From Geosiphon pyriformis uo1 (lineage: Eukaryota > Fungi > Glomeromycota), in NCBI GenBank assembly GCA_016748015.1, contig JAAOMT010000502.1, forward strand, positions 682,001 through 746,000: a DNA stretch of 64,000 bases, given 5' to 3'. The notes under the pieces are model-generated. The model was not told the origin of the DNA. It ran no database searches and saw only the letters and a program-made list of their open reading frames with translations. This document shows, piece by piece, positions 3,226 through 54,106 of this stretch (position 1 is the stretch's first letter; the number at the start of each line of letters is the position of its first letter). The position numbers and the translations under genes are program-made.

Positions 3226-4480
3226 TGTTATCAGACGAAATTAGAGATATTGTTTAGCATGAAATTACCCTTATAAATCTTATCATTAATTAGCATATAT
3301 TATCATTTCAAATTATCACTTATTACATTAACAAAATATCTAAAATTATCATTTAATTAATAACCTAATTTGTACATAACACAAATGTAACCTAAGTGTG
3401 ATGATTAATCATGCAATACCCCGAAATATGTAACATTCAAAAGTTTGCCAAAATTTGTAGAAATTTGCCGAAATAATTGATAGTTCACCGAAATATCTAA
3501 TAGTTCGCAGAAATAACTTGTAGTTCACTGAAATATATCTTTAGTTCAGCAAAATTATAGAAAAGAGCAAAGTTCAAGTTCATAAAATAGTGTTATGACA
3601 AATTGTATAAAAGAAGAGCTTCTCTCTTCGAAAAAATGTATCTTACTTTAGATTTATTACTTAGAACNNNNNNNNNNNNNNNNNNNNATGCAATACCCCG
3701 AAATATGTAACATTCAAAAGTTTGCCAAAATTTGTAGAAATTTGCCGAAATAATTGATAGTTCACCGAAATATCTAATAGTTCGCAGAAATAACTTGTAG
3801 TTCACTGAAATATATCTTTAGTTCAGCAAAATTATAGAAAAGAGCAAAGTTCAAGTTCATAAAATAGTGTTATGACAAATTGTATAAAAGAAGAGCTTCT
3901 CTCTTCGAAAAAATGTATCTTACTTTAGATTTATTACTTAGAACTATTCCTATACACACAAAAAGAAATAAAATATCAAATAATTTGAAAAACCAATTTC
4001 TTTAAATATTGCACTTAGAAAATTCCCAAAACCCAACTAACGTTTAAAATTGATTAGCTACCAATTTTAGTAAACTGTTAGTGATTCCAGGCCTGAATAG
4101 AAAACGTTTTCCTTGATAAAATTCTATTTCTTTTATATTTATTTTATTTTTTTTTATTTTCTTATCATAATTATTAGAGTAACTTACAGATGAAATTTCT
4201 GTAGAAGAGTTGACTTTCACAGCAAAGTAACTACACATTTTTAGTGAGCTTCCAGATGAGCAATTCCTGAGAAAGAGTTGACATTTACTACAACGTAACT
4301 ACACAAAGCAACTGGCACAGAATTGGCCATTCCACTTATAAGCCCAGCAATTCAAATTATAAGAAATAATTTGAAGATAAATTCAGTTACTGGAGGTTCA
4401 ATTACATTCAGAAAACGTGAATTCACAGCAAACAGACATCAACAACATTTAGAAAAAGAGACCAAAAACCTCCGGTAACA
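3226..4480 (+). repeat. Element A 5' LTR (978 bp once the assembly duplication and gap are removed)
   Basis: Direct repeat of 12392-13367. Confidence 0.95.
3411..3944. other. Assembly artefact: 257-bp exact duplication either side of a 20-N gap
   Basis: 3411-3667 equals 3688-3944 with Ns at 3668-3687. The sister LTR has one copy. Confidence 0.9.
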
Positions 4481-4482
4481 TT

Positions 4483-4499
4483 TGGTGCTCTCCCACGGA
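4483..4499 (+). promoter_or_regulatory. Primer-binding site of element A
   Basis: TGGTGCTCTCCCACGGA 2 nt after the LTR, complementary to a tRNA 3' end (...GAGCACCA). The tRNA identity is not determined. Confidence 0.85.
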
Positions 4500-4525
4500 A
4501 ATAACACAGCAACAACAAATTCAAA

Positions 4526-7500
4526 GTGGCAACCACACCAAACACAGCAACTTTAAAGTATTACCAGTCAATTTATACATACTGCAAGCAAAGATTCAAC
4601 ATTCCAGACGAAATTGAAGTTGTCAAAAAATCAGTATACCAATACATTGAAAACCGCATCAACAATTATATTTTTGGAAACTACAACATTTCAAAAGTTA
4701 GAAGCAACCTCTACAATAATTTAGTGCACTATTTACAATTGAGAACAGAAGACCTGAATAGTAAAACACTTGCTACCTACTTCCAAGAACTTAATTTTAA
4801 CATTATTGAGTACTGTAAAGAAAAATACCCAGTACAGTCTAAATACTCTTTTGACTTTAAATTAGAGACAAAAACAAGCAACAAAGGCAAAAAAATATTG
4901 AGGCAATACTCAAAAACCATCTTAAATACTCCAATACTACCAAAAACAACTGCCAAACACTTACAAACACCTGAACAAGGAACCAGTTTAAAACTTCTAC
5001 TTACTATTACACCTTTTTCAGCTTTACTTGCACAAGCAGAAACTCCTAATTCACCTTTAAATCGATTTTCAAGACTAGAAGATTATACATCACCCAGAAG
5101 TCCCATCAGACAACAAAAAACCCTTCAGACTAGTACCAATCTTTTTGACTATTTAGCAGAAAACACAAGCGAATACTCTGAAACATTAGTCAAATGAAGA
5201 AAACATTTCTGAATCCATTGAAGAAGAAGTAGAATCTGAAGAAGAAAGTGAATTAACAGATAATAAAGAAGAAAACAAAATGACAGCTTATATTGCAAAA
5301 ATTCCCAAATTTAATAGAGAAGATATTGAGACCAGTCCCCAAGAATGGCTCAACCAAGTTACTAAAGCTGGAGATGCAAATAGATGGAATGCTGCCAGAA
5401 TGTTAAAAACAATTCCCTACTTTCTCAAAGGAACAGCAGATGAATGGTTCAAAAACTTGACCACCTCTTTTAATGACTGGACAGCTTTCAAAACTGCCTT
5501 CTTAAAACAATTCACCGATAACAACACCTTAATTACACTTCAAAATCATTTTCACAATATTAAACAAGAACCCTCCGAATCTGTTATGACTTATATTGAG
5601 AAATTCAACAAACTTCTCAGACGAATTCACCAACTTGAAACTAATAATTATTATTTTGATGCTCAAATCCTGGATCAATTTATTGCTGGTTTAAAGGATA
5701 AACTGATTAAAAAGGTTTGCTCACATGCCCCAAAAGATTTAAACTCTGCTATTCAGCATGTAAAGAGATGAAATGACCATGAAAGAAGCCAATTGTACAA
5801 AGCTCATGAACTTAGCCATTGGAGAGACTAGCTCAGCAGCTGAAGAGAAAATTGACCAACTCACAAAGAAAGTCAAAAACTATTTTACCAACCAACAACA
5901 ACAGCAACCCCAAAGATATCAACCACTCCAAAAATGGAATCAAAACAACTTCACATTATCCTCTAATAACCAGCCTCAGAGTTGCTATTACTGTAGAATT
6001 CCTGGCCACTGGAAAAGAGATTGCAGAAAGCTACAATGAGACCAACAAAATAGAAGTAATCAACATTACCCTCCACCACAGCAATCTTATTATCAACCAC
6101 CACCATCAGCTTACTATCCACCAAAACCCCAATATCAAAGTAACTATTATCAGCCTGCTCCACAGCCAATTCAACAGCAATACCAACAACCACCCACACA
6201 ACATTATCAAGTGCCTGCTCGAAGATTAATTCCACAAAATCAATTTACACCACAAAACCAATACCAAGTAAACAACAATAGAATCAATTTGAACAACCAA
6301 TTAGTTCTCCGAAATCCAGCTTAGCCAAGACTCACCCATTATCATACTCAACCTAGCTATCTTACAATACCTGAAGAACAGAATTTTCACTATACTGCAC
6401 TCTCAAAAGGTAAAACTGTAGCACAACAACAAAACTCTTCCTATACTCCTACCACAATCCCACCAGCCAGAATTACTGAAAACGCCAACCTTTCAGACAT
6501 ATTCCCTTTTGAGTTTGAAGCAAATGAGTCACCATTCCTGCTTAGCAATGCAGCTACCAATGAACAAAAAGCAATCACTGCTATATACACTGAAGCAGAA
6601 GTTGAAAGAAAGTCAATTTGCTTGATCCTAGACAGTGGATCTGCCAGAAGCATTATCACCTACCAGTTAATGCAACAGTTAAAGAGAAATGTTGACCGAC
6701 CAGCTCAAACAGTAATCATTACTGCCAATAGCATGAAAAAGACTCCAGTAGGAGAAATTGACAATTTTTTGTTCACTCTTGATGAAATCACCATTTTAGT
6801 CAAAGTTCTTGTAATGAATGTAACCCAGTATTAAGCTCTTGTCAGAAATGATTGGCTTCAAAAAGCCAATGCTAATTTGAATTGGAAAACACAAGAGTTA
6901 ATAATCTCCTACCAAGGACAACACACCTGGATATCTGCCACTTGTAGTACATTCAACAAATGCTCCGAAAAAGCCCTGGTTTTTGAATTCGAACTGGAAG
7001 AAGAAAAGCCCATTATTGAAACATTTATGGCACTTGGATCAACCTCCAATTGGGCCGATGAAACTAAACAACAGTACTTTTCAACAAATAATTCTTTTGA
7101 AACAAAAGAACTAGTGACAACCGGATGGAATGTCCCCTATTCAAAACCAGAACCATGAAAACAACGCCCCTATATTCCACTCAAATACAAGAACTGTCAC
7201 AAAAAACTCTCCTCAATAGAAGCCTGCATTTCACCTAAAGAAGAATATGAAAATCATACTTGTTATTACTGCAAGGCTTGCCACAGAGAATAATGGGGCC
7301 ATCTAATAAAAAGAAGCAGAAAATGGAACAACACTCCTTGTTTGACTTGTGGAGATATGCTACCAGAAGAATGCAATTGGGTTAATATAGCAATGAGAGA
7401 AGGAGTCTGTGATCAGACCTGCCAATATGCTTTATCAATTTCAGAAAAAGTAAAAAGAGAAACATCCTTTAATGCAGCATACAACAGTACTCTTAACAAA

Positions 7501-10155
7501 CTTTATCACTACCCCCATAATGCTGAAATGATTTTTAACCTAGCAATGGCATTAATTAATGGAGCTACCAAAGAAGATGTCCATCAAATGAAGGAAACAG
7601 AATACATTGAATACACCATGGAATTAGCTGGATTCGATTACAAAGATGAAGTAGAAGTCTACCACCAAATTGCAAGTTACATCTACCCAACCCAAGAAGC
7701 TCAAATTCAACAATTAGAGCAAATGAACATTAGGCTATGTGAAGAATACATTATGCCTTGTGATGAACAGTGGTGTCTTAAATGCTATGCTCTTAGCATT
7801 CCTCTGCCCAGTAAAAATGATGAAAACGAAATTGAATTTGGAGAACCCAAAGTAACAGAAGAAATTGAAGCAACACCCATCTATTTTATTGAAAACCAGC
7901 CTGCCTTACAACTCAAATACTTCAACAACAATGGACAAGGAATAAAACCTGAAAAAGCACATGAAATTGATGCTGAATATGACCTAAAATATTCAGACAA
8001 GGATACTCTCATTCTCAAACCCAAATCTCACAAAAATCAATCTCAAAATTGCTTTCAAAATTCCACCAGGAGCAATGATTCAAATCACCTTCTGGTTCTC
8101 TCTGGCAAGCAAAGGAATTAATGTCAGAGGAGGAATAATTGATGCTGGATATACTGGTGACATAACAGTAATACTTCAAAACAAAACTGACAAGCCATTT
8201 AAGATTGAACATGCTAAGAAAATTGCCCAAGCCATTTATTTACTCTTAATTAACATTTCGGGTTTACAATTAGTCAATCAAAGAGAACTATTGGGAAAAA
8301 GTGAAAAAGGAATTCAAGGTTTTGGTTCAACTGGATGATTCACAGTTCCAGTAAACATAGCTCTCAATAAACAGAAAGAATCTCACCAAATTTTACAACT
8401 TTCACAACCAATTACCATTTCACTCTTTGGAGAACACCCTGAAATTTATACTTGTGAAAAGCCAACAACCACACAACAAATTTTTGAGTCCAATGAACAA
8501 ATCTGCTTGGAATATAATATCTCGATTCCAAACATTTATATTCCAGAAAGAACAAAGAAAATCTGAGTTATTTTGTACAATCCCAACAATTTTCTCATAG
8601 TTTTATTAAATAACTTAGAAATTAGAGTTATTTACAGTAATATCTTTCAACAAGAATTACCCCAAACAGTCCCCAATTTTTCTGAAATTATTGGACATTT
8701 ACTACCAAAAATCAATCCAAACCCCAGCTCTGAAAACTACCATGTTGTCATAGAAAAACTATCTCGAATCAACATGGGACAACTTGAACCACAACAACAG
8801 AACCAGCTTAAAAAGCTAATTGCAAAATTTGCCAATATCTTTGCCGAAAACAACAATGACTTAGGAAGAACCAATTTGGTTCAACACCAAATCTATACAG
8901 GAGATGCCAAACCAAGACAACAACAAGCCTACTGAGTTGCTCCAGGAAATCACCAATTTATCTGTGAAAAAGTACAATGGATGTTCAACAATAGGCTTAT
9001 TCAATCATCAATGAGTCTATGGGCCTCATCTGTGATCTTAGTTAAAAAGAAAAATGGAAAAATACAATTTTGTGCTGATTATCGACAACTCAACAGTGTC
9101 ATTATTGGAGATGCCTATCCTCTTCCCCAAATTGATGATATGTTGGACACCCTTGGAAAATCCAAATACTTTTCGACATTAGATTTAGAAAGTGGATACT
9201 GACAAGTTGCCATGGATCCCAAAGATCATCCCAAAACAGCATTCAACATTCAAGGAGGAAATTACAAATTCAACGTAATGCCTTTCGGATTATGCAATGC
9301 ACCAGCAACATTCCAAAGACTCATAGATGTTGTTTACAAAGGCCTCCTTTGGAAATCAGTAGTTGTCTATCTCGATGATACTGATGTTTATTCACCATCT
9401 TTTGAATTACATTTAAAATACCTGCAAGAAGTTTTTTAATAATTACGGAAAGCAGGATTAAGACTGAACATTGAAAAATGCTACTTTGGAAAAACGAGTT
9501 TGGCCTTTCTTGACCACATTGTAAGCAAAGATGAAATTAAACCAGACCCCAGAAAAATCAGCACTGTCAAGAACTTCAAGACTTCACGAAATACCACAGA
9601 ATTAAGAGAATTTATTGGATTAGCTTCCTATTACCAAAAATTCATCAAAGGATTCTCAGAAATCACAAAACCTCTTAACCAGCTTACTACTAAAAATGGT
9701 GAATACAAATAGACAAAAGAACACCAAAAAGCTTTTGAAATTCTCAAGGAAAAGCTGACAACAGCTCCAATTCTCGCCTACTCAGACTTCAGTAACTGAT
9801 TTTGACTATCTTTGGTGCCATCTTATCACAATTAAATAACAATGGAAATGAGTGAGTAATCGCTTATGCTAGCAGAACATTAAAACCAGCCAAGAAAAAC
9901 TACCCTGCCACAGAACTAGAAACAACAGTCATAATCTGGGTCCTATACCACTTCAACTTTTATCTCAGGCCTAAAGAATTCGATATTATTACTGATAATA
10001 TTGGATTCAAATGGCTTCAGAACAAAAACACCCAACTGAATGCAAAACAAACCCGATGAACAGAATTTTTAGCCAACTACTGATACATTGTACACCACAA
10101 ACTAGGAAAACTTCACACCAACATTGATTGTCTCTCAAGAATGAGACAAGATTAA
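4526..10155 (+). pseudogene. Element A Gag-PR-Cys-rich-dUTPase-RT-RNase H polyprotein, disrupted
   Basis: Capsid-like 5280-5771, zinc knuckle CYYCRIPGHWKRDC 5983-6024, protease LILDSGSARS about 6620, RT MPFGLCNAPATFQ and YLDD 9368-9379, RNase H ending NIDCLSRMRQD-stop. Confidence 0.93.
7910..8335 (+). pseudogene. dUTPase domain of element A
   Basis: All five trimeric dUTPase motifs recognisable: DA(E/G)YDL, S-SLA, GGIIDAGYTGDI, KIAQAI, KGIQGFGSTG. One frameshift near 8030. Confidence 0.9.
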
Positions 10156-10195
10156 CCAACACCCATTTGAATTAACAACAACAAAACAACAAACA

Positions 10196-11581
10196 ATGAA
10201 CCCCAAAAACTACAACAATCTTAAACAATATTTGGAGACATTAACAATCCCAACAAATTGGTCCCCAGATAAAAAATGTCAGTTACAACAACAAACCAAA
10301 CAATACTTCTTACACAACAACATTATTTATTATCAAAACTTCAGAAACCCAGACAGTCCACTCAGATTAATACAAGAACATGAAAAAAAAATCATTTTAT
10401 ATAACATGCATTCAGACCCTTTATCAGCACATCTAGGAAAAGACAACACCATTCAGAGAACACTAAAATATTATTTTTGGCCTCAAATAAGAAAAAACAT
10501 TCATAAATATGTTAAGTCTTGTGATAATTGTCAAAGAAAAGGAGGAACTCACCCTACAGAACCTTTAAACCCAATCAAAGTTGGACAGCCTTTTGACCAA
10601 GTTGGTATTGATTTAGTTAGAACACTTCCTATCACAAACCAAGGAAACCATTATATTGCAGTAGCAGTAGACTATCTCACCAAATGGCCTGAAGCCAGAG
10701 CTATTCAACAAGTAGATGCAAAATCAGTAGCAAACTTCATCTATGAAGACATTATTTGTAGACATGAATGCCCAATAGAACTTTTATTTAATCAAGGAAC
10801 ACATTTTGTAAACAATTTAATCTAGGAAATTTGTGGATGATTTAATGTCAAGAGACCATTATCTTCACCCTACTATTCACAAACAAATGGACTTGTAGAA
10901 TGTTTCAACAGAACATTGTGTGAATCATTAGCCAAAGTCTCAACTGATTTTGAGTAAGAATAGAATCTCTTTATTCCATCAGTGTTACTAGCATATAGAA
11001 CACTAAAACAAGATACCACAAAACACACACCATTTGATTTAACTTATGGAAGGACAGCAACATTACCAATTAGTTTTACAGTGGAAACATATCCAGCACA
11101 ACCAATCGATAAAAACAATTTCCAGGAAACACTACAACAAAGAGCCTACACTCTGCTTAGCACATTGGAAAGAAAATGACAAATAGCAGCCACCCATATC
11201 AAACACTCCCAAGCTCAACAAAAAGAACAGCATAATGACAAATTGCCTCCAGTTACCAATGGATTTAAAATCAGAAACAAAGTTCTCTTACACAGAACTA
11301 AAACTGAAAAACAATGGAGTGGAAAATTTGAAAATAAATGGGATGGACTATTCTTTATTTATGAAGTCCTAGGCAACAGATCATATAAGCTAAGACTTGA
11401 TAACAAAATCTTAGCAAAAGTTGCATATGGAGATCATTTGAAACACTATAATTCCAGAAACAATTCTGAACCATTAATTCCACAAATTGGCACACATTCC
11501 CTTTTAATCAATTCCAAAGATATTCTCTGGAATTTAGAACCAATAGTTGTCATTGAACAACCTCCCAACTTGAATACTTAA
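10196..11581 (+). pseudogene. Element A integrase (own ATG)
   Basis: HSDPLSAH...CDNCQ HHCC motif, GIDLV, VDYLTKWPEA, QGTHF, QTNGLVE, C-terminal GPF-like KWDGLF. No chromodomain. Confidence 0.93.
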
Positions 11582-11703
11582 TTTAAATTTATTATTATAG
11601 TTATCTTCTTATAATTTAGAAACAATCTCACAAAAACAAAACAAAAATAACATAAAAACCCATACACCAAAAATAATTTTCTTTTATTTTCAAATCTCTT
11701 ATA

Positions 11704-12423
11704 ATGACTATTCCTCAAAACATTCAACAATTATCTTAAAAACTAATGTTAGCTTTAAAAACAATACCCAAATTATCTATTACTGTTACTGGAAACCACA
11801 TTAATTATACCTTAACAGAAGTAGTCCAAAATTTAGTCCCAAATTCACGAAAATATTATCCATATAAAAAGAACACAAGAAGTTATTCTGAAATTCACCT
11901 GCCAGAACTTTTAAAGCTTGCTTTAAGAGAAAACTTAATGCTCATTCCTATTAGTATTCTACTAAATGCTACTATTCAACAAAAACTTTAACTGTGTCTT
12001 AATGAAGAAAACTATGACTATACTCCAATATATAGATATTTCTACATTGGAAAAACACTTCACAAATGAAAATGAGAGCTTACAGCAGCAAATCTCACAA
12101 AAGAAGCTATTCGGAAACAACTCCACAATGAATTTAAGACAACAGCTGGACCTACAAACAGTTGTTATAAACTAAGAGCTGCTCTTAGACTTTATGACCT
12201 ATTCTACACCTGTGAAAACGTTCTATAAAACCCAATTTTTCAGCCTTTGAAGATTCAATACATTAGAAAGCTCACAGAACTGAAATTTTAACAATTTTCA
12301 GACCAAATTTCTTCAATAATTTTGGATTATTATCTGGAAATTACAGACAGTAGTTGGACTTTGATGGAGCTCAGTTTTGAAGAGGAGGTTATGTTACCAG
12401 ACAAAATTAGAGATATTGTTTAG
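11704..12423 (+). pseudogene. Element A accessory ORF3 (about 240 codons, unknown function), running through the PPT into the 3' LTR
   Basis: One reading frame from ATG 11704 interrupted only by TAA/TGA codons explicable as C>T. Homologous ORFs in elements C, D and E. Confidence 0.8.
12379..12388 (+). promoter_or_regulatory. Polypurine tract of element A
   Basis: GAAGAGGAGG 3 nt before the 3' LTR. Confidence 0.8.
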
Positions 12424-13367
12424 CATGAAATTACCCTTATAAATCTTATCATTAATTAGCATATATTATCGTTTCAAATTATCACATATTACATTAGCAA
12501 AATGTCCGAAATTATCATTTAATTAATAACCCAATTTGTACATAACACAAATGTAACCTAAGTGTAATGATCAATTATGCAATACCCCAAAATATGTAAT
12601 ATTCAAAAGTTTGCCAAAATTTGTAGAAATTTGCCGAAATAATTGATAGTTCACTGAAATATCTAATAGTTCGCAGAAATAACTTGTAGTTTGCTGAAAT
12701 GTATCTTTAGTTCAGCAAAATTGTAAAAAAGAGCAAAGTTCAAGTTCATAGAATAGTGTTATAACAAGTTATATAAAAGAAGAGCTTTTTTCTTCAAGAA
12801 AATGTATCTTACTTTAGATTTATTACTAGAACCATTCCTACACACACAAAAAGAAATAAATATCAAATAATTCAAAAAACCAAATTCTTTAATTATTGCA
12901 CTTGGAAAATCCCCAAAACCCAACTAATGTTTGAAATTGATTAGCTACCAATTTCAGTAAACTGTTAGTGACTCCAGGCCTGGATAGAAAACGTTTTCCT
13001 TGATAAAATTCTATTTCTTTTACATTTTTTTTATTTTCTTTTATTTTCTTATCATAATCATTAGGGTAACTTACAGATGAGATTTCTGTAGAAGAGTTGA
13101 CTTTCACAGCAAAGTAACTACACATTTTTAGTGAGCTTCCAGATAAGCAATTCCTGGGAAAGAGTTGACATTTACTATAATGTAACTACACAAAGCAACT
13201 GGTATGGAATTGGCCATTCCACTTATAAGCCCAGCAGTTCAAATTATAGGAAATAATTTGAAGATAAATTCAGTTACTGGAGGTTCAACCACATCCAGAA
13301 AACGTGAATTCACAGCAAACAAACATCAACAACATTTAGGAAAAGAGACCAAAAACCTCCGGTAACA
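12392..13367 (+). repeat. Element A 3' LTR (976 bp)
   Basis: TGTTACCAG...CCGGTAACA, direct repeat of the 5' LTR. Confidence 0.95.
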
Positions 13368-18298: not shown

Positions 18299-19269
18299 TG
18301 TTATTAATAGAATTTTAGCTATTAATTAGCATGAAATTACTTTCATAATGTCTATTATTAATTAGCATATATTATTATCATTTTGATTATCATTTATTAT
18401 TTAATCAAATTATCAAATATTATTACTTAATCAATAATCTGATTTGTACCATAGAAATTAAAATAATCAAATTACACAATACTCTGAACTATTTAATATA
18501 GTCAAAATTCGCCGAAATTAATAAAAATTGACCAAAATAATCAATAGTTCAGTGAAATAACTTGTAATTTGCCAAAATATATTTTTAATTCACCCAAATT
18601 ATAGCAAAGAGAAAAGTACAAGTTCAAAGACTAGTACTATAACAAGTTGTATAAAAAAAGAGCTTTTCTTTTCAAGAAAATGTATTTTCTCATAGTATCT
18701 TAACATAGTATCTTACTCTAGATATCTTAATTAGAACAAATCACTTTTTACACATTCAAATAAAAATTAAATATTCAAAAACCAAATTCCTTGATTATTG
18801 TATCTGAAATTCTCTTAACATAACTAAAATTTTGAAATTGATTAGCTACAAATTTCAGTAATCTGTTAGTAATTCCAGGCCTGAATAGAAAACGTTTCCT
18901 TTGATAAAATCCTATTTTTTTTACATTTCTTTTATTTTTTCTTTCTTTTTTTATTATAATCATTAGGGTAATCTACAGACAAGATTTCTATAAAAGAGTT
19001 GACTTTTATAGCAAAGTAACTACACATCTTTAGTAAGCTTCCAGACGAGCAATTTCTAGAAAAGAATTGACATTTATTACAATGTCACTACACAAAACAA
19101 CTGACATAGAATTGGTTATTTCACTCATAAGCCCAACAGTTCAAATTATAAGAGATAATTTGAAGATAAATTCAGTTACTAAAGGTCCAACTACTTCCTG
19201 AAAATGTAAATACACAGCAAATTAACATTAACAACATTCAAAAAAAGAGACCAAAAACCTCCAGTAATA
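18299..19269 (+). repeat. Element C 5' LTR
   Basis: Direct repeat of 27184-28153 and 37890-38861. Confidence 0.93.
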
Positions 19270-19314
19270 TTTGGTGCTCTCTTACAGAAATAACACAACA
19301 ATAACAACTTCAAA

Positions 19315-22300
19315 GTAGTGACCATACTAGACACAACAACTTTAGAGTATTATCAGTCAATTTACACCCATTGCAAACAGAGATTCAACATTCCAGACAG
19401 AATTGAAATTGTTAAGAAGACACTTTACCAGTATATTGAAAACTGCATTAACAATTATCTTTTTGGAAATTACAACATTTCAGAAATTAGAAGCAATCTT
19501 TACAATAATTTAGTGCACTATTTACAGTTGGGAACTGAAAACCTTAACAATAAAACACTTGCCACCTACTTTCAAGAACTTAATTTTAACATTATCAAGT
19601 ATTGTGAAAAAACATATTCAGTACAGTCTAAATACTCTATTGACTTTGAATCAGAAACAAAAACAAGCAACAAAGACAAACAAAAACTAAAACAACACTC
19701 AAGTACCACTCCAAATACTCCAAAAACCCCAAAAACAACTGCCAAACACTTACAAACACCTGAACAAGGAACCAGTGTCAAATTACCACTTTTTATTACA
19801 CTATTTCCAATTTTATTTGTTTGATTACAAACACCAAATTTATTACTTAACCGTTTCTTCAGACCAAAAGATTTTTAGTTATCTAAAAATCTTACTTAAC
19901 AACAAGAACCAATATCAACCAGCACCAATCTTCTTGAATACTTACAGGAAAATGAAAGTAATTATTCAGAGAACTTAGAGAGTAAAAAAACTGAATTGGA
20001 ACCAGAAGAAATAGCAACTGCTTATATTGCAAAGATTCTAGAATTTACTGGTGAAGATAATAATACCAGCCCTCAAGAATGGCTTGACAAAGTTCAAAAA
20101 ACAGGAGATGCAAATGGTTGGAATGCAGCAAAAATGCTCAAAGCAATTCTATACTTTCTTCAAGGAACCACAAAAAAATGATTTGAAAACTTAGAAAACT
20201 TATTTAAAAACTGGCAAGCATTCAAAAATGCTTTTTTACAACAATTTACTGACAACAACAACACTTTTATCACTCTTCACAATCACTTTCAAAATATCAA
20301 ACAAGAAACATCTGAAACTGTTATAATCTATCTTAGAAGATTCAACAAACTTCTTCGACAAATTCGACAATTGGAGACCAATAAATACTATTCCAATACA
20401 CAGATTTTGGATCAGTTTATAGCAGTATTGAAAGACAAGTTAATCAAAAAAATTTACCCACATGTCCCAGAAGACTTAACCACAGCCATTAGACATGCAA
20501 AGAACTATAAAATGGCAATAGAAGAAGCAAACCATATCAAACTTGTGAATCTTGCTATTAGAGAAACCAGCTCAGTAGCTAAAGAAAAAATTGACCAACT
20601 TACAAAAAAGATTGAAAACTATTTTACTAATTAGCAACAACAGCAACAATTACAAAGATATCAATCACCACAACAATAAAACCAAACCAACTACCCATTA
20701 TTATCAAACAGTCAAAACCAAAGTTGTCATTATTGTGGGATTCTAGAACATTGGAAACAAGATTGCAGAAACCTACAAAGAGACTAACAAAACAAAAGTA
20801 ATCAACATTACTTTTTAACACAGCAATCTTATTATCAGCTACCACCACCAGCCTACTATTCCTTAAGATCTCAACAGCAAACCAATTACTATTAGCCTGC
20901 TTCACAGCAGCAATATTAACAACCTTTACCAATCCAATAGTATTAACAGCCACCTACACAACAATACCAAGTACCTGCCCAAAGATTGGTTTAACATAAC
21001 CAATTTATACCTCAAAATCAATTTCAGAACAATAACAACAACAGAATCAATTCAAACAACCAATTAGTTACCCAAAATCTTGGTCAGCAAAGACCCAATC
21101 ACTACTACACTCAACCCAGTTATCTCACAATGTTTGAAGAATTAGATTTTCAACAAATTGCACTTTCTGAAAATGAAGTTGCAGCACCAAGATCAAATCC
21201 TTCTAATAAAACTATTCCATCAGCCCAAATTGCTCAAAATACCAATCTTTCAGATATATTCCCATTTGAATTTGAAGCAAATAAATCACCATTCTTGTTT
21301 AGCAATGCAGCAGTTAATGAACAAAAAGCAATTACAGCTATGTATACTGAAGCTGAAATGGAAAAAAAACCCATTCAGTTAATTCTAAACAGTGGATCAG
21401 CTGAAAGTATCATTACCTACCAATTAATGCAACAACTCCAATAAACTATTAACAGACTTGTTCAAACAATCATTGTTATAGCAGATGATATAAAAAAGAC
21501 ACCAGTAGAAGAAATTAACAATTTCCCATTCACCATTGATGGAATTACTATTCCAGTCAAAGTTTTAGTCATGGATGTATCACAATACCAAGCTCTTGTC
21601 AGAAATAATTGGTTTCTCAAGACCAATTTAGATTGAGAAACTCAGGAATTGAAGATTTTATACTGAGGACAATATATCAGAGTATCTGCTATCTGTGGTA
21701 CTTTTAATAAAAAATCTGAGAAAGCTCTAGTATTCGAATTTGAAAAGGAGAAAGAACTACCAGTCATTGAAACTTTTATGGCTCTTAGATCAACATTTAA
21801 TTGGGCTAAAGAAACAGAACAAAAAATCTTTGAGGAGACCAGAGAATGAAATGTTGTTCAATACTCTACACCAGAACCAAGAAAACAATTACCCTATATT
21901 CTACTCAAATACAAAGATTATAAGAAAAAACTTTCATCAATGGGAGCATGTATTTTTCCAAAAAAGGAATATGAAACTTGCACCTGTTACTACTGTAAAG
22001 CATGCCATAGAGAACAATTTGGATACCCCAAAAGAAGTAGAAAATGGGACAACACTTCTTGTCTTACATGTGAAAATATGCTATCAGAAGAATACAACTG
22101 GATTGATGTTGCAATAAGAGGAAGAGTATGTAATCAAATCTGCTAATATGCTTTATCAATCTCGAAAAAAGTCAGAAAAAGAACATCATTTAATACAACA
22201 TATAACAGTGTTTTCAATAAACTCTATCACTACCCTTATAATGCTGAAATAATCTTTGATTTAGCAATGGCTTTAATTAATGGCACCACACAGAAAGATG

Positions 22301-24905
22301 TCTGACAAATGAAAGAAGCTAAGTATATTGAATACACAATAGAATTAGCTGGATTCAACTATGAAGATGAAATAGAGACATATCACCAAATTGCAAGCCA
22401 CACATACTCAATCTAAGAAGCTCAAATTCAACAATTAAAGCAAATGAATATTCAATTGTGTAAAGAATACATCATGCTTTGTGATGACAAATGGTGTCCA
22501 AAATGCTATGCTCTTAGTATTCCCTTGTCCAATGAAAATAACCAGAAAGAAATTGAATTTGGAAAACTGGAAACAAAAAAAGAAATCACAACAACACCAA
22601 TCTATCTTATTAAAAACCAGTCTGCTATACAACTCAAATACTTTGACAACAATAGACAAAAAATAAAACCAGAAAAAGCCCATGAAATTGATGCAGAATA
22701 TGACCTCAGATATTCTGGCAAAAACACTTTGGTTCTTCAACCAAAATTCTTAACCAAAATCAACCTCAGAATTGTTCTTGAAATACCACCAGGAACAATA
22801 GTACAAATTGCTTCCCAATCATCATTGGCAAGCAAAAAAATCAATGTTAGAGAAGAAGTTATAAATGCAGGATATACTGGAGACATTACTATTATGTTAC
22901 AGAATGAAACAGACAAATTATTCAAAATTGAACATGCTAAAAAGATTGCCCAAGCAATTTATCTACTCTTAATCAACATTTCGGGTTTACAATCAGTAAA
23001 CAACAGAGAACAATTGGAAAAAAGTGAAAGAGGAACTTAAAAGTTTGGTTCAACTGGACAATTTACAATTCCAGTAAACATAGCTCTTAATACACAAAAT
23101 GAATCTCACCAGATTTTTTAACTTTCTTAACCAATTACCATTTCACCTTTTGAAGAACATCACGAAATTTATATTTGCTCAAAACCTACTACTACCCAAC
23201 AAATCTTTGAATCCAATAAACAAATCTGTGTAAAGCATGAAATCTCAATCCTAAACGTTTATATTCTCAAAAGAATGAAAAAATTTTGAGTTACATTTTA
23301 CAACCTTAATAATTACCCCATTGTCCTATTGAATAAATTAGAGATTAGAATCATACACAGCAATATCTTCCAGAATAAAAACCCTCAAGTTGTCTCCAAT
23401 TTTATTGAAATTGTAAGGTATACTCTACTTCCAAATTCAAACATTATCTTTACTACTGAAAACTACCACCTTTTGGAAGAAAAACTCTTTTGAATCAACA
23501 TGGGTCCCTTAGAATCTTAACAACAAAGACAATTGAAACAGCTAATAGCTGAATTCGCTGACATATTTACAAAAGACAACAATGACCTTGAAAAAACTGA
23601 TATTGTTCAACACCAAATCCATACAGAAAATGCTCCACCAAAATAACAACAAGTCTATTGAGCTTTACCTACTAGCCACCAATTTATCAGAGAAAAGGTC
23701 CAAAGAATGCTCAATAATGGATTAATTCAACTATCAAGAAGTCCATAGGTCTTATTAATAGTTTTTGTCAAAAGAAAAACGAAAAAATTAGATTTTGTGT
23801 TAACTATCAACAATTGAATAGTGTTACAATTAGAGATGCCTACCCTCTTCCAAGAATTAATGACATGCTAGATGCTTTAGAAAAAGCCAAGTTCTTCTCA
23901 ACTTTAGACTTGGAAAGTGAATATTAGCAAGTTGAAATAGATTCAAAAGATCAACCCAAAACAGCATTTACCACCTAAGGAGGAAACTATGAATTCAATG
24001 TTATGTTTTTTGAACTCTGCAATGCACCAGCAACATTCTAGCAACTCATAGATGCTGTATATGAAGGACTTTTGTGGCAATCAGTAGTTGTTTATCTTGA
24101 TGACACTAATGTGTACTCACCAAGTTTTGAAGCTCATCTTATCTACCTGCGAGAAGTTTTTCAATGATTATGAAAAGCAGGATTAAAGTTAAACATTAAG
24201 AAATGTTACTTTGGAAAAACAAGTTTAATCTTTCTTGGACACATTGTTAGCAAAAATGGAATCAAACCAAATCCTGGAACAATTAGTGCTGTTAAAAATT
24301 TTTAAACACCCAGAAATACCATGGAGCTATGAGGATTTATAGAATTAGTCTTCTACTATTGAAAATTCATAAAAAGATTCTTAGAGATTGCCAAATCACT
24401 CAACTATCTCATCAACAAAAACGTGTCATATCAATGAACTGAAGAACAACAGAAAGTCTTTGACACTCTCAAAACAAAATTAACAACAGCTCCAGTTTTT
24501 GCTTACCCAAATTTCAACAAACAATTCCAACTAGCCACTGATGCCTTACACATAGCTTTTGGTGCCATTTTGTTACAATTGGATAAAAATGACCAGGAAT
24601 AAATTATTGCCTATGCCAGTAGAATATTCAAGCCAACAGAACTCAAATATGACTCAACTGAATTAGAAACTGTCACAGTTATTTGGGTTATTAAACATTT
24701 TTAACAATATTTAAAGAATAGAAAAAAATTTGACATCATAACTGACAATATTGGCCTCAAATGACTCAATAAAAAGAAAACCAAACAAAGTACCAAACAG
24801 TCTTGATGGAATAACTTTTTAGCAGACTACAAATATATTGTACATTACAAACCAGGAAAACTACACACCAATGTTGATAGCCTCTTAAAAATGAGACAAA
24901 ATTAA
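19315..24905 (+). pseudogene. Element C Gag-PR-Cys-rich-dUTPase-RT-RNase H polyprotein, disrupted
   Basis: ORF fragments at 19318, 19996, 20371, 21130, 21940 and 22444 are all in one frame. dUTPase about 22630-23058, YLDD about 24093, ends KMRQN-stop. Confidence 0.92.
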
Positions 24906-24962
24906 TACCAACAACAAATCTACTACAACTTACCAATCTACCAACAAAATAACCAAACAACA

Positions 24963-26347
24963 ATGGATCCCAGAAATTACAACAATATTAAAAACTATTT
25001 AGAGACTCTTATCATGCCAGAAAATTGGTCTCCAAGTAAAAAACATTGATTACAACACCAATCCAAACAATATTTCATACACCATAACAAAATCTATTAC
25101 AAAAATTGCAGAAACCCAAATCAACTACTCAAATTAATACAGAAAAATAAAAAAGAAACAATTCTATACAACATGTACACAGATCCTTCTTTAGCATACT
25201 TAAGAAGAGATAGAACAATTTAAAGAACTCTTGAACATTATTTTGGCCTCACATGCAAAAAAACATTCAACAATATGTAAAATTTTGTGATAATTGTCAA
25301 AAAAAAGGAGGAACTTGCCCCACAGAACCTTTAAATCCAATCAAAATTGAACAACTTTTTGACAAAGTTGGAATTGATTTAGTTGAATCATTACCTATTA
25401 CAACCCAAGGAAATTGTTATATTGCAGTTGTAGTAGATTATCTCACCAAATGGCCTGAAACTAGAGTCATCCAAAGAGCAGATGCAAAATCAGTAGCAAA
25501 TTTCATTTATGAAGACATTATTTGTAGACATGAATGCCCAATTGAACTTTTATCTGATCAAGGAACATATTTTGTGAACAACTTGATACAAGAAATTTGT
25601 GAATGATTCAATGTCTAAAGATCTTTATCATTACTTTATTACCCTTAAACAAATGGACTTGTAGAACGTTTTAACAGAACATTGTGTGAATCTTTAGCCA
25701 AAGTCTCAACAAATTTTGAGCAAGAATGAGATATCTTTATTCCATCAGTGTTACTAGTATACAGAACACTAAAACAAGATACTATAAAACACACACTATT
25801 TGATCTTACTTATGGAAGAACAGCAACATTACCAATTAATTTCACAGTGAAAACATACCCAGTGTAACCAATCAATAAAAAAAACTTTTAAGAAACACTC
25901 TAAAGAAGAGCTTATACTCTTCTTAGTATATTGGAAGGAAAGAAACACATAGCAGCTACTTATATTGAACACTCTCAAGCCTTACAAAAAAAAAGACATA
26001 ATAACAAACTGCTACCAATCACCAACAAATTTAAAGTTGAAAATAAAATTCTCTTATACAGAACTAAGGCTAAAAAACAATGGAATAGAAAATTTGAACA
26101 TAAATGGGATGGACTATTTTATATTCACAAAATTCTAGGCAACAGATTATACAAGTTAAGACTTGTTAACAAAGTATTAGCAAAAGTTGCATATTGAAAT
26201 CAACTGAAACACTATTATTCCAGAAACAATTCTGAACCATTAATTCCACAAATTGGTATATATTTCCTTTTAATTAATTCTAAAGATATTCCCCAAAATT
26301 TAGAACCAATAATTATAATAAAACAATAGCCAAATCTGAACACTTAA
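24963..26347 (+). pseudogene. Element C integrase (own ATG, MDPRNYNN...)
   Basis: CDNCQ, GIDLV, DYLTKWPE, LSDQGTYF motifs, collinear with 10196-11581. Confidence 0.9.
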
Positions 26348-26499
26348 TTTAACATTTTTACAATAATCCTTTTAAATACCCAAAACATAAAACAAAAATA
26401 GTAAATAATTACAAGAAATATTCAAATCCAAAAACAAATAAAAATCTATACCCAAAAATAATTTTCTTTATTCTTTTTTTTTAGTTAGTTATTTTTATC

Positions 26500-27203
26500 A
26501 TGATTATTCCTCGAAATATCCAACAAATATCTTAAAAATTAATGTTAGTCTTAAAAACACTTTTTGACTTATTTATAATAATTAATAGAAGTCAAATTAA
26601 TTACATTCAGAAAGAAACCATAGCCCCAGTAGTAAACAATTCTCGGAATTATCACTTCTATAGAAGAAAAACAAAAAGCCACTCTGAAAATCAATTACCA
26701 GAACTTTTGAAGCAAGCACTAAAAGAAAACCTTTTATTTGTCTCTATTGACATTCCACCAAATGCCACAATTTAACAAAAACTTCTACTATTTCTCAATA
26801 AACAGAACAATAAACATACTCTTATATATAGATATTTCCATATTGGAAAAACATTTTGTGAATAAAAACTGGAACTTGAAACAACTAACATTACTCCTGA
26901 GGCTATACAAAAACAAATTCACAATGAATTCAAGACAGCAGCTGGACCAACACTTGCTATAAACTTAGAGCAGCATTTAGACTCTATAATTTATTCAACA
27001 CTTGTAAAAACGTCTTACAAAATCCAATACTTCAGCCAATAAAGATTCAATACATTGGAAAGCTCACAAAACTGAAATTTCAACAATTTTCAGACCAGAT
27101 TACTTCAATTATCTTGGACTACTATCTTAACATCACAGATAGTGCTTGGACTTTAATGGAGCTTAGTCTTGAGGAGAAAATTATGTTACCAGTAGAATTT
27201 TAG
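26500..27203 (+). pseudogene. Element C accessory ORF3
   Basis: MIIPRNIQQIS...YRYFHIGKTF...RAAFRLYNLF homologous to ORF3 of A. One small frameshifting deletion near 26950. Confidence 0.78.
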
Positions 27204-28153
27204 CTATTAATTAGCATGAAATTACCTTCATAATGCCTATTATTAATTAGTATATATCATTATCATTTTGATTATCATTTATTATTTAATCAAATTATCA
27301 AATATTATTACTCAATCAATAATCCAATTTATACCATAGAAATTAAAATGATCAAATTACACAATACTCTGAACTATTTAATATAGTCAAAATTTGTCGA
27401 AATTAATGAAAATTCACCGAAATAATCAATAGTTCAGTGAAATAACTTGTAGTTTGCCAAAATATATCTTTAGTTTATCCAAATTATAGCAAAGAGAAAA
27501 GTGCAAGTTCAAAGACTAATACTACAACAAGTTGTATAAAAAAAAAGCTTCTCTCTTCAAGAAAATGTATCTTTTCATAGTATTTTAACATAGTATTTCA
27601 CTCTAAATATCTTAATTAAAACAAATCACCTTTTACACATTCAAATAAAAATTAAATATTCAAAAACCAAATCCCTTGATTATTGTATCTGAAATTTCCT
27701 TAACACAACTAACATTTTGAAATTGATTAGCTACCAATTTCAGTAATCTGTTAGTAACTCCAAGCCTGAATAGAAAACGTTTCCCTTGATAAAATTCTAT
27801 TTTTTTTACATTTCTTTTATTTTTTCTTTCTTTTCTTATTATAATCATTAGAATAGTCTACAGATGAGATTCCTGTAGAAGAGTTGACTTTCACAGCAAA
27901 GTAACTACACATTTTTAGTAAGCTTTCAGATGAGCAATTCTTGGGAAAGAGTTGAAATTTACTACAACATAATTACACAAAGCAACTGGCACAGAATTGG
28001 TCATTCCACTTATAAGCTCAGCAGTTCAAATTATAGGAGATAATTTGAAGATAAATTCAGTTACTGGAGGTCCAACTACTTCCAAAAAACATGAATATAC
28101 AGCAAATTAACATTAACAACATTCAAAAAAAAGACCAAAAACCTCTAGTAATA
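27184..28153 (+). repeat. Element C 3' LTR
   Basis: TGTTACCAG...CTAGTAATA, direct repeat of 18299-19269. Confidence 0.93.
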
Positions 28154-29247: not shown

Positions 29248-30004
29248 TGTTATAGTTAAAACTTATACTTTTTATTAATTATTATATATATTAGCCACTG
29301 ATCTTATATTATTACGGTTGAAACCTATACTTTTTATTAATTATCATATGTATTAGCTACTGATGTTATATAATTAGCCACTCTATTTTTAGAAAATAAT
29401 TATTGATCTGATTATTGACTACTTTTAATAGCTATATAAGTGATGAATTTCTTAGCTGTAAAAAAGCATGTAAGAATTAAAGAAAAAAAATAAATAAAAT
29501 AACAATTTTCATCTCAATTATTCTATTATTACTAATTTTCTTTTCCCTACTTTTAAGTATCTGAATATTTTAGGATAAAAAATTACTTGTTGGTTATTTC
29601 TTACCCTTTTCCTGAAATGTGTAATTGTAGCATTTGAAGATTATTGAATAAAATGTGATTGAAGAGTATATCTAATATCTGATATTGAATTTTAAGAGCA
29701 CTAACATGAAGCATAAAATTATATTATTGTGTAATTATTTGTTAACAGTATAAACTATCCCTTTACTTTCAGATTCTCCAGTTATCTTTTGAAAAATATA
29801 GCAACTAAGATATTTTATGAAACTGATCTTGCACATTAAATTCATACTTATTCAATTTGCTCTTTGAAATTGAATTCTCTTTGATTCTTTTTATCATTCT
29901 ACAATTCTGTTCTTCCTTGCTATTTGTTAGCTTATTACTTCAACCCATAACATAAAAGTGGTGCTTCCTGTGAAGTTGTCAAAATCTACTTTGTTTTTTA
30001 TTGT

Positions 30005-31553
30005 ATGGATGATTATTTATATCTGTTACAACAATTAAAAAAACACTTTGAAACACACAACAAAAACAATCTAAACTTTATTGAACTCAATCCTTTGTTC
30101 TTCTGCTTAATTTGCTTCCTTATCAAAGAACAATCCAGTAAACAATTCCAAGACTTTTGGAACTGGTTCTTAAATAAGCATTCAGCTGAAATCTATACAG
30201 CCTATGCAACTTATTACTTTGACCAAGCTTATCTTGAAGACAACTTTAAAGAAAAAACAACAACATTAATTAACTTTTATATTTCACAACTTTTGAATAA
30301 CTGCTTTCTGATTTTGAATATCTAAATCACCAAATTCACATTTGGATTGCTGCCCATTAGCTAGCAGAGACTTCTTTTGAAATAGAAAAAAAAGCTATCA
30401 AACTGCTTCTGTTTTTGATCTCTTCTCAAGTGAATCAGAACATTCTACACAAACAGCTACTTCTGAACTAATGGCTAATAACCTCATACAACAAAACATT
30501 CTGATCACTCTCCAGAGAATACAAACTGCTTTAGAACAAAAAAATAACACACTATTACCTTTATTTAGAAGTAATATACAAGACTCAATTGAATAGTTAA
30601 ATGATTTTGAAAGAACAGTCACTACTAATTAATATAATAATAAGTACAAGTTCCAAATTATTGGTGGCTATCTCTAAGACTCTCCTGCTACTTGGTTCTC
30701 ACAAAAAACTGATGCTGGTGCTCACCAAAAAATTATTAGATAGACACCAACAAATGCTGAAGAAGAAAACACCTCTTTCACAACCTGGTTTGAAACTAAA
30801 TTTAGAACTCCTATTCTAATATCCAAATAGTACATAGAATTAGAAAAAAGAATCTAAGATTTTAGTAAAGTTGTAACTGAATATGCCAAAGCAATCAGAA
30901 AGTTAATCAAGCAAATAAACTCTGAAAAAAACTGGACAGAAAAGCAAAAGATTCATTTTTTTACAAAAGAATTGAGAACTGATCTTTCAAATGCTTTTTG
31001 GCCTCTCTTGGCTCTAAAAGACCATCCTACAATAAATATGGCCATTGAATTAGCCCAATGAATTGAAAACAATCAAAAAATGCACTTGGGATCCACACTT
31101 CCAGTTTTTGTTCCTGCTTCTGTTATGACTTCTGCTCCTTAAATAATTGCCACTTTTTTTGTTGTTCAAACTTCAAATCTCAATAAATAATTGATAGATA
31201 GACTTACAGCCAATTTTGCCCAGCTATTAGAACTCTTAGCCCAAGCAGTCAGAAAGAATCAACAACTTTAAAGACCCAGATATGAACCCTATTTTAATCA
31301 ACTCCAATAATTTCCTTATCAAAGACAACAAAATTGTGGTTCATCTGTGTGTTATTGCTGTAAATTAACTGAACATTTTTTCAGAGATTACAACAATCTT
31401 CCTTTGCCTTCTCCAGCTTCCAGAAACAATAATAATCAAAACAACAGAACCATCAACAACAATATTTCCAATCAAAGACCCAATCATGTCAACATCAATT
31501 TCTTTGGAGAGAATTCCTTAGTTAAAACCACTGTTTATTAGCTTTTAAACTAG
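30005..31553 (+). pseudogene. Element D gag, disrupted
   Basis: ATG at 30005, capsid-like region about 30550-31080, zinc knuckle remnant CYCCKLTEHFFRDY. Confidence 0.8.
31544..31550 (+). promoter_or_regulatory. Probable -1 ribosomal frameshift heptamer T TTA AAC (gag-pol)
   Basis: Correctly phased in the gag frame, followed by a stop. The -1 frame matches the downstream pol fragment. The same motif is at 40858-40864 in D'. Confidence 0.7.
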
Positions 31554-34206: not shown

Positions 34207-34271
34207 TAGTACAAGCTTCTCAAACCAACTCATCTTAATTATTAATAAATCTTTTATAAACAAACACAATA

Positions 34272-35582
34272 ATAGACTTAGACAACTACTCTGCCTTAAT
34301 GAAATTTTTGGGTAAAGAACAATACCCACTAGAATACACTCAACAGCAAAGAGAACATTTGTGTAAATAATCAAATTTTTATTTGATTTGTCAGAACCAA
34401 TTATATAAAAAAAACAAAAAAAATTCTGACTGCTTCCAAAAAGTCATCAGATTTGAAGAAAGAGAAATTGTAATATACAACATATACACTGACCTATTAG
34501 CTAAACACTTTGGAAAAACAAAAACAATTTAGAAAACTTTAGCTTGCTATTATTAATCTACTTTAAGAAAGGACATTGCTAAATACATTAAAACCTATAA
34601 CATCTGCCAAAGAAGAGACAAACCCAATTGCAAAGAAGATATTCATCCAATTTCTGTAGATCAACCATTTGACAGAATTGGTATAGATGTTGTTGAATCT
34701 TTAATAATAACTCTTAATAGCAACAGATACATTATTAAAGCTACCAATTATCTTACAAAGTGAGTAGAAGCAAGAGCCATTTCAGATTAAACAGCAGTCT
34801 CAATAGCCAATTTCATTTATAAAGATATCATCTGTCATTATGGCTGTCCCAAAAAACTTTTATTTAATAGAAAAAGAGCTTTTTTCATTACACTGGTTAA
34901 AGAACTTTGTAGAAAAATAGGAATACATCATAAATTTTCTTCTTACCACCCTTAAACAAATGATTTATTAAAATATTTCAATAAAACACTATGTAAAATC
35001 CTAACCAAAACCAGTAAAGAAACAAACTTATAAGACAAAGTACTGCTCTTAGTTTTGTTTGCTTATAGAACTGTGAATTATGACATAACAAGTTATGAAT
35101 CTTTTTATTTGCTTTATGGATACATGACAACATTACCAATAGAGACTAACATTGAAACAATATCCTTTGAAGAAATTACAATAGGAAATTACAAAGACAT
35201 TTTGCAAAAAAAACTTGGTATTATTCTTGACTCCTTGGTAGAAACATAAATAATTGCTTTTGAAAAGATAAAACAGTTCCAAGAAAAGCTTAAGAAAAAG
35301 AAAATCTATAAAACACTTTCTTTAAGTATTGGTAACTTGATATTAAAATACTGTTTAGACAGAAACAATATCTATGATAATAAATTCTCTAGCTGATAAA
35401 AAAGACTTTTTATAGTTAACAAAGTTTTAAACAATAGTTCTTATATTCTTTAAAATCAATCTGAAACAATCTTTAATGATCATTCTGTTCATAGTACATA
35501 ATTCAAGAAATATTATAAATGACCTGATTGGTTGCCTGTTGTGATAATACTAATTCAGATGATTAGCAAAAATCAAGTATAA
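34272..35582 (+). pseudogene. Element D integrase (separate ORF, start decayed to ATA)
   Basis: DLDNYSALMKFL N-terminus, QPFDRIGIDVV, YHP-TN motifs. End approximate. Confidence 0.82.
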
Positions 35583-53404: not shown

Positions 53405-53418
53405 TTATTTTCTTCTTT

Positions 53419-54047: not shown

Positions 54048-54106
54048 TTTCTGCTGTTTTTTGTTACATATAACATGTCTTTATATATTCTTTGGTTGTT
54101 CAATTT

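What the first reader, a model, noticed from the sequence alone, without database searches (positions are those of the whole stretch)
11704..12423. Conserved non-env accessory ORF3 in all three Gypsy families
Seen: each element whose 3' end is visible has a 210-240 codon ORF between integrase and the 3' LTR (A 11704-12423, C 26500-27203, D about 35583-36279, E 54047-53419). A and E have unrelated LTRs yet align throughout: MTIPQNIQQLS/MKITDSIYLLA, YRYFYIGKTL/FCYFYLGQYL, RAALRLYDLF...IQYIRKLTELKFQQF/RAIYRLHTGF...INQMRKITNVQFEDL. D is more distant. No signal peptide or transmembrane run is visible. Known: extra 3' ORFs in Gypsy elements are usually env-like (errantiviruses) or lineage-specific. 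Inference: a vertically inherited accessory protein, possibly nucleic-acid binding (transactivator, RNA export or anti-silencing factor), making these 'complex' retrotransposons.
Basis: partly seen in the sequence, partly recalled or inferred. Interest (0 to 1): 0.85.

Follow-up and report, generated by a model that had tools for sequence, protein, structure and literature searches.

The report
Conserved extra gene in fungal retrotransposons
Several jumping-gene (Ty3/Gypsy LTR retrotransposon) families of the fungus Geosiphon pyriformis carry a third, non-envelope gene kept under purifying selection, whose product likely binds nucleic acid and would help the element switch itself on or escape silencing.

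Summary
The extra 3' gene is real, but every copy in this window is broken. The window matches Geosiphon pyriformis (Glomeromycota) gene models. Elements A, C, D and E each carry a 210-240-codon ORF between integrase and the 3' LTR, with 3-6 stops and/or a frameshift; full-length relatives occur elsewhere in the genome. A-versus-C dN/dS is 0.22, like integrase (0.27), against a spectrum-matched null of 0.68 (0 of 2000 lower). A/C and E are homologous (HHalign E=1.5e-6). An independent metagenome element (L001) has the same RT-RH-IN-ORF3-PPT-LTR layout with an intact ORF3 30% identical to A. D's ORF3 sits in the same place and is multicopy, but homology to A/E was not shown. There is no transmembrane run and no env match. 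A confident AlphaFold model (pLDDT 80) gives a small N-terminal alpha/beta part and an all-helical core. Weak leads point to ParB/KorB-type helix-turn-helix relatives (DUF3102, DUF1016_N; Spo0J and KorB at Z 3.7-3.8), but none is significant and one decoy control did not discriminate. Best reading: a vertically inherited soluble accessory protein, likely a nucleic-acid binder acting on its own LTR. Expression and function are untested.

The parts
3226..13367 (+). Element A: complete Ty3/Gypsy element, TG..CA LTRs, 4-bp target duplication ATGC, inserted in an E-family solo LTR; gag, PR, Cys-rich segment, dUTPase, RT, RH, IN, ORF3
   Evidence: LTR-LTR identity 93.8%
11704..12423 (+). ORF3 of A (239 codons, 6 in-frame stops); its last codons run through the polypurine tract into the 3' LTR (starts 12392)
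   Evidence: 84% identical to database protein P0005 over 1-239
12636..12700 (+). 20-bp tandem repeat (3.2 copies) in the 5' part of A's 3' LTR; candidate binding sites (inferred)
18299..28153 (+). Element C, sister subfamily of A (about 75% DNA identity)
26500..27203 (+). ORF3 of C (3 stops, one frameshift near 26946-26952)
29306..36685 (+). Element D (short LTRs; no dUTPase or Cys-rich segment detected)
35624..36279 (+). ORF3 of D (218-aa family; 3 stops, frameshift near 35800-35812); crosses the PPT into the LTR; homology to A/E not shown
52563..58478 (-). Element E, 5'-truncated (Cys-rich segment, dUTPase, RT, IN, ORF3, 3' LTR 53404-52563)
53419..54050 (-). ORF3 of E (start codon read as ATA, 3 stops, frameshift near 53885); stop lies just before the PPT

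Best explanation
These Ty3/Gypsy elements carry a separate third gene, under purifying selection and placed between integrase and the 3' LTR, that encodes a soluble ~230-aa protein which likely binds the element's own DNA through a predicted helix-turn-helix-like core and would thereby promote its transcription or protect it from methylation silencing. Shown: position, multicopy full-length relatives, selection, A/C-E homology, same layout in a second genome, no transmembrane run. Predicted: N-terminal helix + beta-hairpin + helix, a basic low-confidence linker, and a helical core (residues ~80-205 of P0309). Inferred and untested: expression from its own (subgenomic or spliced) mRNA, since ORF3 follows pol after a non-coding gap (about 120 nt in A, 316 nt in L001); DNA binding; family-specific U3 tandem repeats as targets; the activating effect.
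For: dN/dS A-C 0.223 (95% CI 0.14-0.32), IN 0.27, gag 0.19, other sense frames 0.50 and 1.18; 0 of 2000 spectrum-matched nulls as low, LTR frames 0.51-0.78. Full-length relatives: 24 of 120 listed A-search hits are 238-239 aa and 20 of 108 D hits are 215/218 aa. At three of A's six stops most contig depth of DNA run X1 shows another letter. L001 has RT-RH-IN then an intact ORF3 crossing the PPT. IN identity A-C 80, A-L001 72, A-E 55, A-D 46; ORF3 66, 30, 23, not alignable. pI 8.9-9.9 in 6 of 7 representatives. Model pLDDT 79.9, core about 90. HTH leads: Atlas DUF1016_N 0.85; Pfam DUF1016_N in 3 of 28 members, best E=0.037; HHalign core vs DUF3102 E=0.013, 0 of 60 shuffles as high, and vs DUF1016_N E=0.029, 2 of 60; both of these families match the ParB HTH at E about 2-3e-5; Spo0J 1vz0 (Z 3.8, rmsd 5.0, 92 aligned), KorB 1r71 (Z 3.7, rmsd 4.2, 91 aligned) and ParB 6s6h (Z 3.2, rmsd 3.2, 59 aligned) are among the top 50 of 48,161 chains, the first two spanning the whole core. 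Each family has its own short tandem repeat in the LTR. CpG o/e is 0.13 and 38 of 44 copy-private changes in D are C>T or G>A type, which fits a methylating host. Precedent: VANC proteins (PMC6719617, passages).
Against: No structural match reaches Z 5; the best rows are unrelated helical bundles (Z 4.7) and the ParB-type rows are tied with them. Direct ORF3-ParB HHalign E=0.15. Against a merged DUF3102+DUF1016_N profile only 14 columns align. In a decoy ranking of 900 bacterial frames the ORF3 profile put 12 ParB-like frames in its top 20, but a block-shuffled profile put 11 and the reversed one 8. The repeat excess in LTRs is modest: A 7 vs null max 5, E 9 vs 6; C, D and L001 not above null. 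The profile search of 1.84 billion proteins gave 115 hits, of which 102 of the 103 new ones align to ORF3 references and 1 is a low-complexity repeat, so no outside family was reached at E<=0.001.
Confidence: 0.45

Rival explanations
1. ORF3 is an RNA-side accessory factor: it binds the element's RNA or particle (export, packaging, suppression of small-RNA silencing, or movement of particles through the coenocytic hypha) and does not bind LTR DNA.
For: Basic, soluble, helical protein; position like retroviral 3' accessory genes (recalled analogy to nef, bel and rev; no call); the fold evidence is too weak to fix the ligand.
Against: Such leads as exist point to DNA-binding HTH families; no RNA-binding Pfam family matched at curated cut-off.
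Confidence: 0.25
2. ORF3 is a protein-protein adaptor, for example an integration-targeting or host-defence-blocking factor, with a generic helical bundle and no nucleic-acid binding.
For: Top structural rows are generic helical bundles, including the CHD1 C-terminal domain and Orc6. No chromodomain was seen after the integrase core by eye, so targeting might be supplied separately (inference).
Against: Conserved basic and aromatic residues in the predicted third and fourth core helices; HTH-type leads above.
Confidence: 0.22
3. ORF3 is a degenerate env or other membrane protein.
For: Only the position 3' of pol.
Against: Maximum 19-residue hydropathy 0.41-1.32 and 0-2 cysteines in 7 of 7 representatives; all-helical soluble model; no viral fold match at E<=0.001.
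Confidence: 0.03
4. The ORF is an artefact of AT-rich sequence or of constraint from the PPT and LTR.
For: All four window copies are broken; the C-terminal residues are spelled by the PPT.
Against: Selection over the N-terminal part (0.26) and the core (0.19) alike; null test; intact ORF in L001.
Confidence: 0.02

Closest known systems
Ty3/Gypsy elements with non-env ORF3 (bdelloid rotifer LTR elements; PMC5408684, abstract seen)
   Same: gag-pol-ORF3 layout, dUTPase in pol of some lineages, ORF3 not an envelope
   Different: Rotifer ORF3s are GDSL esterase, DEDDy exonuclease or small transmembrane proteins; this ORF3 matched no Pfam family at curated cut-off and is fungal
dUTPase-bearing fungal Gypsy elements (Postia, Phanerochaete, Tuber Tmt1; PMC2864245, passages)
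   Same: dUTPase between PR and RT in A, C and E
   Different: The passages seen describe no conserved 3' ORF family (a figure legend lists an 'additional ORF with unknown function' without detail)
VANC anti-silencing proteins of Arabidopsis VANDAL transposons (PMC6719617, passages)
   Same: TE-encoded accessory protein; family-specific short tandem motifs in the element; methylating host
   Different: VANDALs are DNA transposons; no sequence or fold link was tested; analogy only
DUF3102 / DUF1016_N (YhcG N-terminal) / ParB-KorB HTH domains
   Same: Order of helices and a Y-x-x-IG-x-x-L motif followed by an R-x-Y-x-x-F helix; weak profile and structure similarity
   Different: Not significant (E 0.01-0.03, Z<4); decoy control did not discriminate; no nuclease or ParB CTPase domain is attached

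Membership tests
Ty3/Gypsy LTR retrotransposon | LTRs with TG..CA ends, target-site duplication, PBS and PPT | tested here: met
   A: 3226-4480 and 12392-13367, TSD ATGC, TGG-starting PBS, purine tract before the 3' LTR
Ty3/Gypsy LTR retrotransposon | Domain order gag-PR-RT-RH-IN | tested here: met
env-bearing Gypsy (errantivirus-like) | ORF3 with a C-terminal transmembrane anchor and hydrophobic signal peptide | tested here: not met
   maximum KD19 hydropathy 1.32 in 7 of 7 proteins; a dedicated signal-peptide predictor was not available
env-bearing Gypsy (errantivirus-like) | Match to an env or fusion-glycoprotein family or fold | tested here: inconclusive
   none listed in Pfam or BFVD; absence from lists does not exclude
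ParB/KorB-type HTH (incl. DUF3102, DUF1016_N) | Significant profile match to the family | tested here: inconclusive
   Pfam DUF1016_N 12.9 bits vs cut-off 32.8; HHalign E=0.013, 0.029, 0.15; decoy test not discriminating
ParB/KorB-type HTH (incl. DUF3102, DUF1016_N) | Same fold over the DNA-binding domain | tested here: inconclusive
   Spo0J Z 3.8 rmsd 5.0 92 aligned; KorB Z 3.7 rmsd 4.2 91 aligned; tied with unrelated rows
ParB/KorB-type HTH (incl. DUF3102, DUF1016_N) | DNA binding and dimerisation | not tested
   needs experiment; the dimer prediction did not run
A/C/E ORF3 family (membership of D's ORF3) | Significant profile-profile similarity | tested here: inconclusive
   E 0.16-0.35 in local mode; but A and the D core retrieve two Atlas clusters with identical descriptors (127 aa, 123 members; DUF6192, 128 aa, 52 members), and motif order is similar by eye
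VANC-like anti-silencing factor | Sequence-specific demethylation of cognate elements | not testable with these tools
   experiment required

The most novel reading that the evidence does not exclude
A lineage of glomeromycotan Ty3/Gypsy elements captured a bacterial or phage ParB/KorB-type helix-turn-helix domain and has kept it as a dedicated third gene in all its families, D included, where it binds family-specific tandem repeats in the LTR as a self-encoded transactivator or anti-silencer: a 'complex' fungal retrotransposon with a prokaryote-derived regulator.
Probability: 0.2. Interest if true: 0.85.

Novelty: new variant of a known kind. Interest (0 to 1): 0.6.

Why it matters
LTR sequences make up 41.2% of the G. 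pyriformis genome (PMC11952901, passage). A conserved non-env accessory gene in families that expanded so far, in a strongly CpG-depleted genome, is a direct candidate for how they got past host silencing. The family has no Pfam model and its copies are annotated as hundreds of 'hypothetical proteins', so it also inflates the species' gene count. An intact copy (L001) and candidate LTR repeats make the function testable with a simple binding and reporter assay.

Tried and rejected
No whole genome is held, so genome-wide consensus, genome-wide dN/dS and LTR linkage of every copy were not measured. As a proxy, 72 of 373 fetched proteins carry a gag/pol piece, including 32 of the 49 longer than 260 aa. 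Expression: no RNA holder listed; X2 and X3 are of guessed kind and show only a few contigs (18 and 4 on A; 2 on D), which is no evidence either way. Pattern scans with alignment A3 found no relative in metagenome contigs (593 stretches) or viral contigs (87). tblastn against phages gave only E>=3. Foldseek PDB and BFVD: 0 matches at E<=0.001; PDB sequence search 0; VIA on the first, poor model (pLDDT 49.5) best Z 6.0, generic; the second-look VIA list held no ParB entry. PHROG 23683 matched 11 of 25 rows, best E=1.4e-4, but no real member could be fetched (1 weak match in 301 genomes), so it stays a lead. DUF6192 profile vs ORF3 E=0.91. P0369 (low-complexity repeat) was dropped's list; P0277 is a gene model holding both an A/C-type and a D-type piece and was not taken as proof of homology. 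The homodimer prediction never ran, so dimerisation is open. Earlier findings of the scan: none. Literature searches that returned no description of this ORF: Geosiphon+Gypsy+retrotransposon (4 papers, 3 listed), arbuscular mycorrhizal+LTR retrotransposon+ORF3, ParB/helix-turn-helix/LTR retrotransposon/additional ORF (5 listed), LTR retrotransposon/additional ORF/downstream of pol/fungi (20 listed); seen as listings, apart from passages of PMC11952901. The library lacks most subscription papers, Repbase and GyDB were not searchable, and no supplements were read (those of PMC2864245 and PMC11952901 may list such ORFs).

Full report
Setting. The window is 18-41% GC in 2-kb bins with CpG o/e 0.13. 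All listed hits of three protein searches are named Geosiphon pyriformis: 120 listed of 180 for A, 42 of 42 for E, one of them 100% identical to the window, and 108 of 108 for D. No whole genome is held. Self-comparison and Pfam define a nest of Ty3/Gypsy elements: A 3226-13367, C 18299-28153, D 29306-36685, E 58478-52563 on the minus strand and 5'-truncated, plus partial D- and E-family copies whose 3' ends are missing. A has TG..CA LTRs, a 4-bp target duplication, a PBS and a PPT. A, C and E carry a Cys-rich segment and a dUTPase between protease and RT; neither was detected in D.

Observation. The breaks look private to these copies. Of the 120 listed A hits, 24 are 238-239 aa long and 23 end like C; 20 of 108 D hits are 215 or 218 aa. 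These are gene models whose intron structure I could not see, but P0005 aligns over 1-239 to 11704-12420. At three of A's six stops most contig depth of DNA run X1 shows a sense base (only 40 of 403 rows were shown). In A, C and D the ORF runs through the PPT into the LTR; in E it stops just before the PPT.

Selection. A versus C gives dN/dS 0.223 (bootstrap 0.14-0.32; N-terminal part 0.26, core 0.19), against 0.27 for integrase, 0.19 for gag, and 0.50 and 1.18 for the other two sense frames. Transition bias lowers this estimator, so I placed the same substitution spectrum at random positions: mean 0.68, minimum 0.35, 0 of 2000 at or below 0.225; LTR sequence read as codons gave 0.51-0.78. ORF3 was therefore constrained as protein about as strongly as pol. 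No such test was possible for D or E.

Homology and spread. A/C versus E: HHalign E=1.5e-6, 183 columns, score 47.5 versus at most 23.1 in 30 shuffles and 10.3 reversed. A profile of 25 A/C/E sequences against 1.84 billion representatives gave 115 hits; of the 103 new ones, 102 align to A, C or E references and 1 is a low-complexity repeat; 28 are under 50% identical to the references and show at least three further subfamilies. I looked up 10 of the 103: 7 are Geosiphon and 3 are unnamed metagenome proteins (P0303, P0309, P0376). The contig of P0309 (L001, 3713 bp) reads RT-RH-IN, a 316-nt gap, an intact 230-aa ORF3, then PPT and LTR start. Its integrase core is 72% identical to A's and its ORF3 30%; across A-C, A-L001 and A-E, integrase identity (80, 72, 55) and ORF3 identity (66, 30, 23) fall in the same order. 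That fits vertical inheritance, on few taxa and without a formal congruence test. The host of L001 is not known; its low GC and CpG o/e of 0.21 resemble the window. D's ORF3 is a multicopy family in the same position with similar motif order by eye, and its core retrieves two Atlas clusters with the same descriptors as A does, but no direct comparison was significant.

Nature of the protein. Seven representatives have no hydrophobic run (KD19 at most 1.32) and 0-2 cysteines, and six are basic. No Pfam family reaches its cut-off. With 28 diverse sequences AlphaFold gave pLDDT 79.9: helix, beta-hairpin, basic low-confidence linker, helix, then a core of four helices, two short helices and a long C-terminal helix at about 90. 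No solved or viral structure matches clearly. Several weak leads converge. The Atlas and Pfam suggest DUF1016_N. Profiles that I built from fetched bacterial loci show DUF3102, DUF1016_N and the ParB HTH to be related to each other (E 1.6e-5 to 1.7e-4), and the ORF3 core meets DUF3102 at E=0.013 and DUF1016_N at E=0.029 in the same register. Spo0J, KorB and ParB appear in the top 50 of 48,161 chains at Z 3.2-3.8, the first two over the whole core. Against this: the Z-scores are tied with unrelated bundles, the direct ParB comparison is E=0.15, a merged profile aligns only 14 columns, and block-shuffled and reversed profiles ranked ParB-like decoy frames nearly as well as the real one (11 and 8 versus 12 of 20). 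My first suspicion of DUF1016_N/DUF3102 came from recalled motifs, before these calls, so the choice of families to test was not blind. I put an HTH-type relationship at about 40%.

Mechanism. Most likely ORF3 is made from its own mRNA (inferred), binds the element's nucleic acid, most probably LTR DNA (inferred), and raises transcription or blocks silencing (inferred). Each family has a different short tandem repeat in its LTR: 20 bp in A, about 40 bp in E, 12 bp in D; only A and E exceed shuffles in my motif count. The decay pattern fits cytosine deamination in a methylating host (38 of 44 changes in D). VANC proteins provide the precedent of a TE-encoded, motif-dependent, family-specific anti-silencer (PMC6719617, passages), as an analogy only. 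RNA-side and adaptor roles remain open; env and artefact are all but excluded.

Novelty. Non-env third ORFs are known in Gypsy-like elements (PMC5408684, abstract), as are fungal elements with dUTPase (PMC2864245, passages). Four searches found no description of this ORF, within a library that lacks most subscription papers; no supplements were read. PMC1189080, PMC1913061 and PMC3424549 (passages) treat YhcG/DUF1016 as a predicted nuclease, the first noting a helical N-terminal domain of unknown structure. Verdict: a real, selected and apparently undescribed accessory gene family, shown for the A/C and E lineages and one outside element, positional only for D, with function inferred. New variant of a known kind; interest 0.6.

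Noticed in passing
window 7294-8010 (A), 22030-22746 (C), 58478-58005 (E), 62888-63376: A Cys-rich segment with several CxxC pairs lies between protease and dUTPase in the A/C and E families; no Pfam match at E<=0.01; not detected in D. Possibly a second uncharacterised captured domain; dN/dS 0.27 over 7294-8118.
   Followed up: partly
window 4505-5194 (A), 19294-19977 (C): About 230 codons upstream of the Pfam gag domain, in frame with gag in C, under selection (0.31), no Pfam match at cut-off: a long Gag N-terminal extension.
   Followed up: partly
window 3411-3944: Exact 257-nt duplication (period 277) inside A's 5' LTR, absent from the 3' LTR: recent duplication or assembly artefact.
   Followed up: no
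window 2556-3225 and 13368-13569: Element A sits inside an E-family solo LTR.
   Followed up: partly
window about 43750-50560: A higher-GC insertion with RT and RNase H matches, probably a non-LTR element, splits the second D-family copy; a related RT fragment lies at 15668-16550.
   Followed up: no
window 36245-37900 and 42744-43435: D-family LTR-like sequences with a 12-bp tandem unit occur in both orientations and form several inverted repeats.
   Followed up: no
L030-L117 (bacterial loci): DUF3102, DUF1016_N and the ParB HTH domain match each other by HHalign (E 1.6e-5 to 1.7e-4), which suggests that the two DUFs are ParB-type HTH domains.
   Followed up: partly
P0303 and P0376 (ENA metagenome proteins): P0303 lies on a 19-kb contig and ends in the same PPT-spelled motif as A; P0376 is the most distant hit (E=5.9e-4). 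Their contigs could not be fetched.
   Followed up: no
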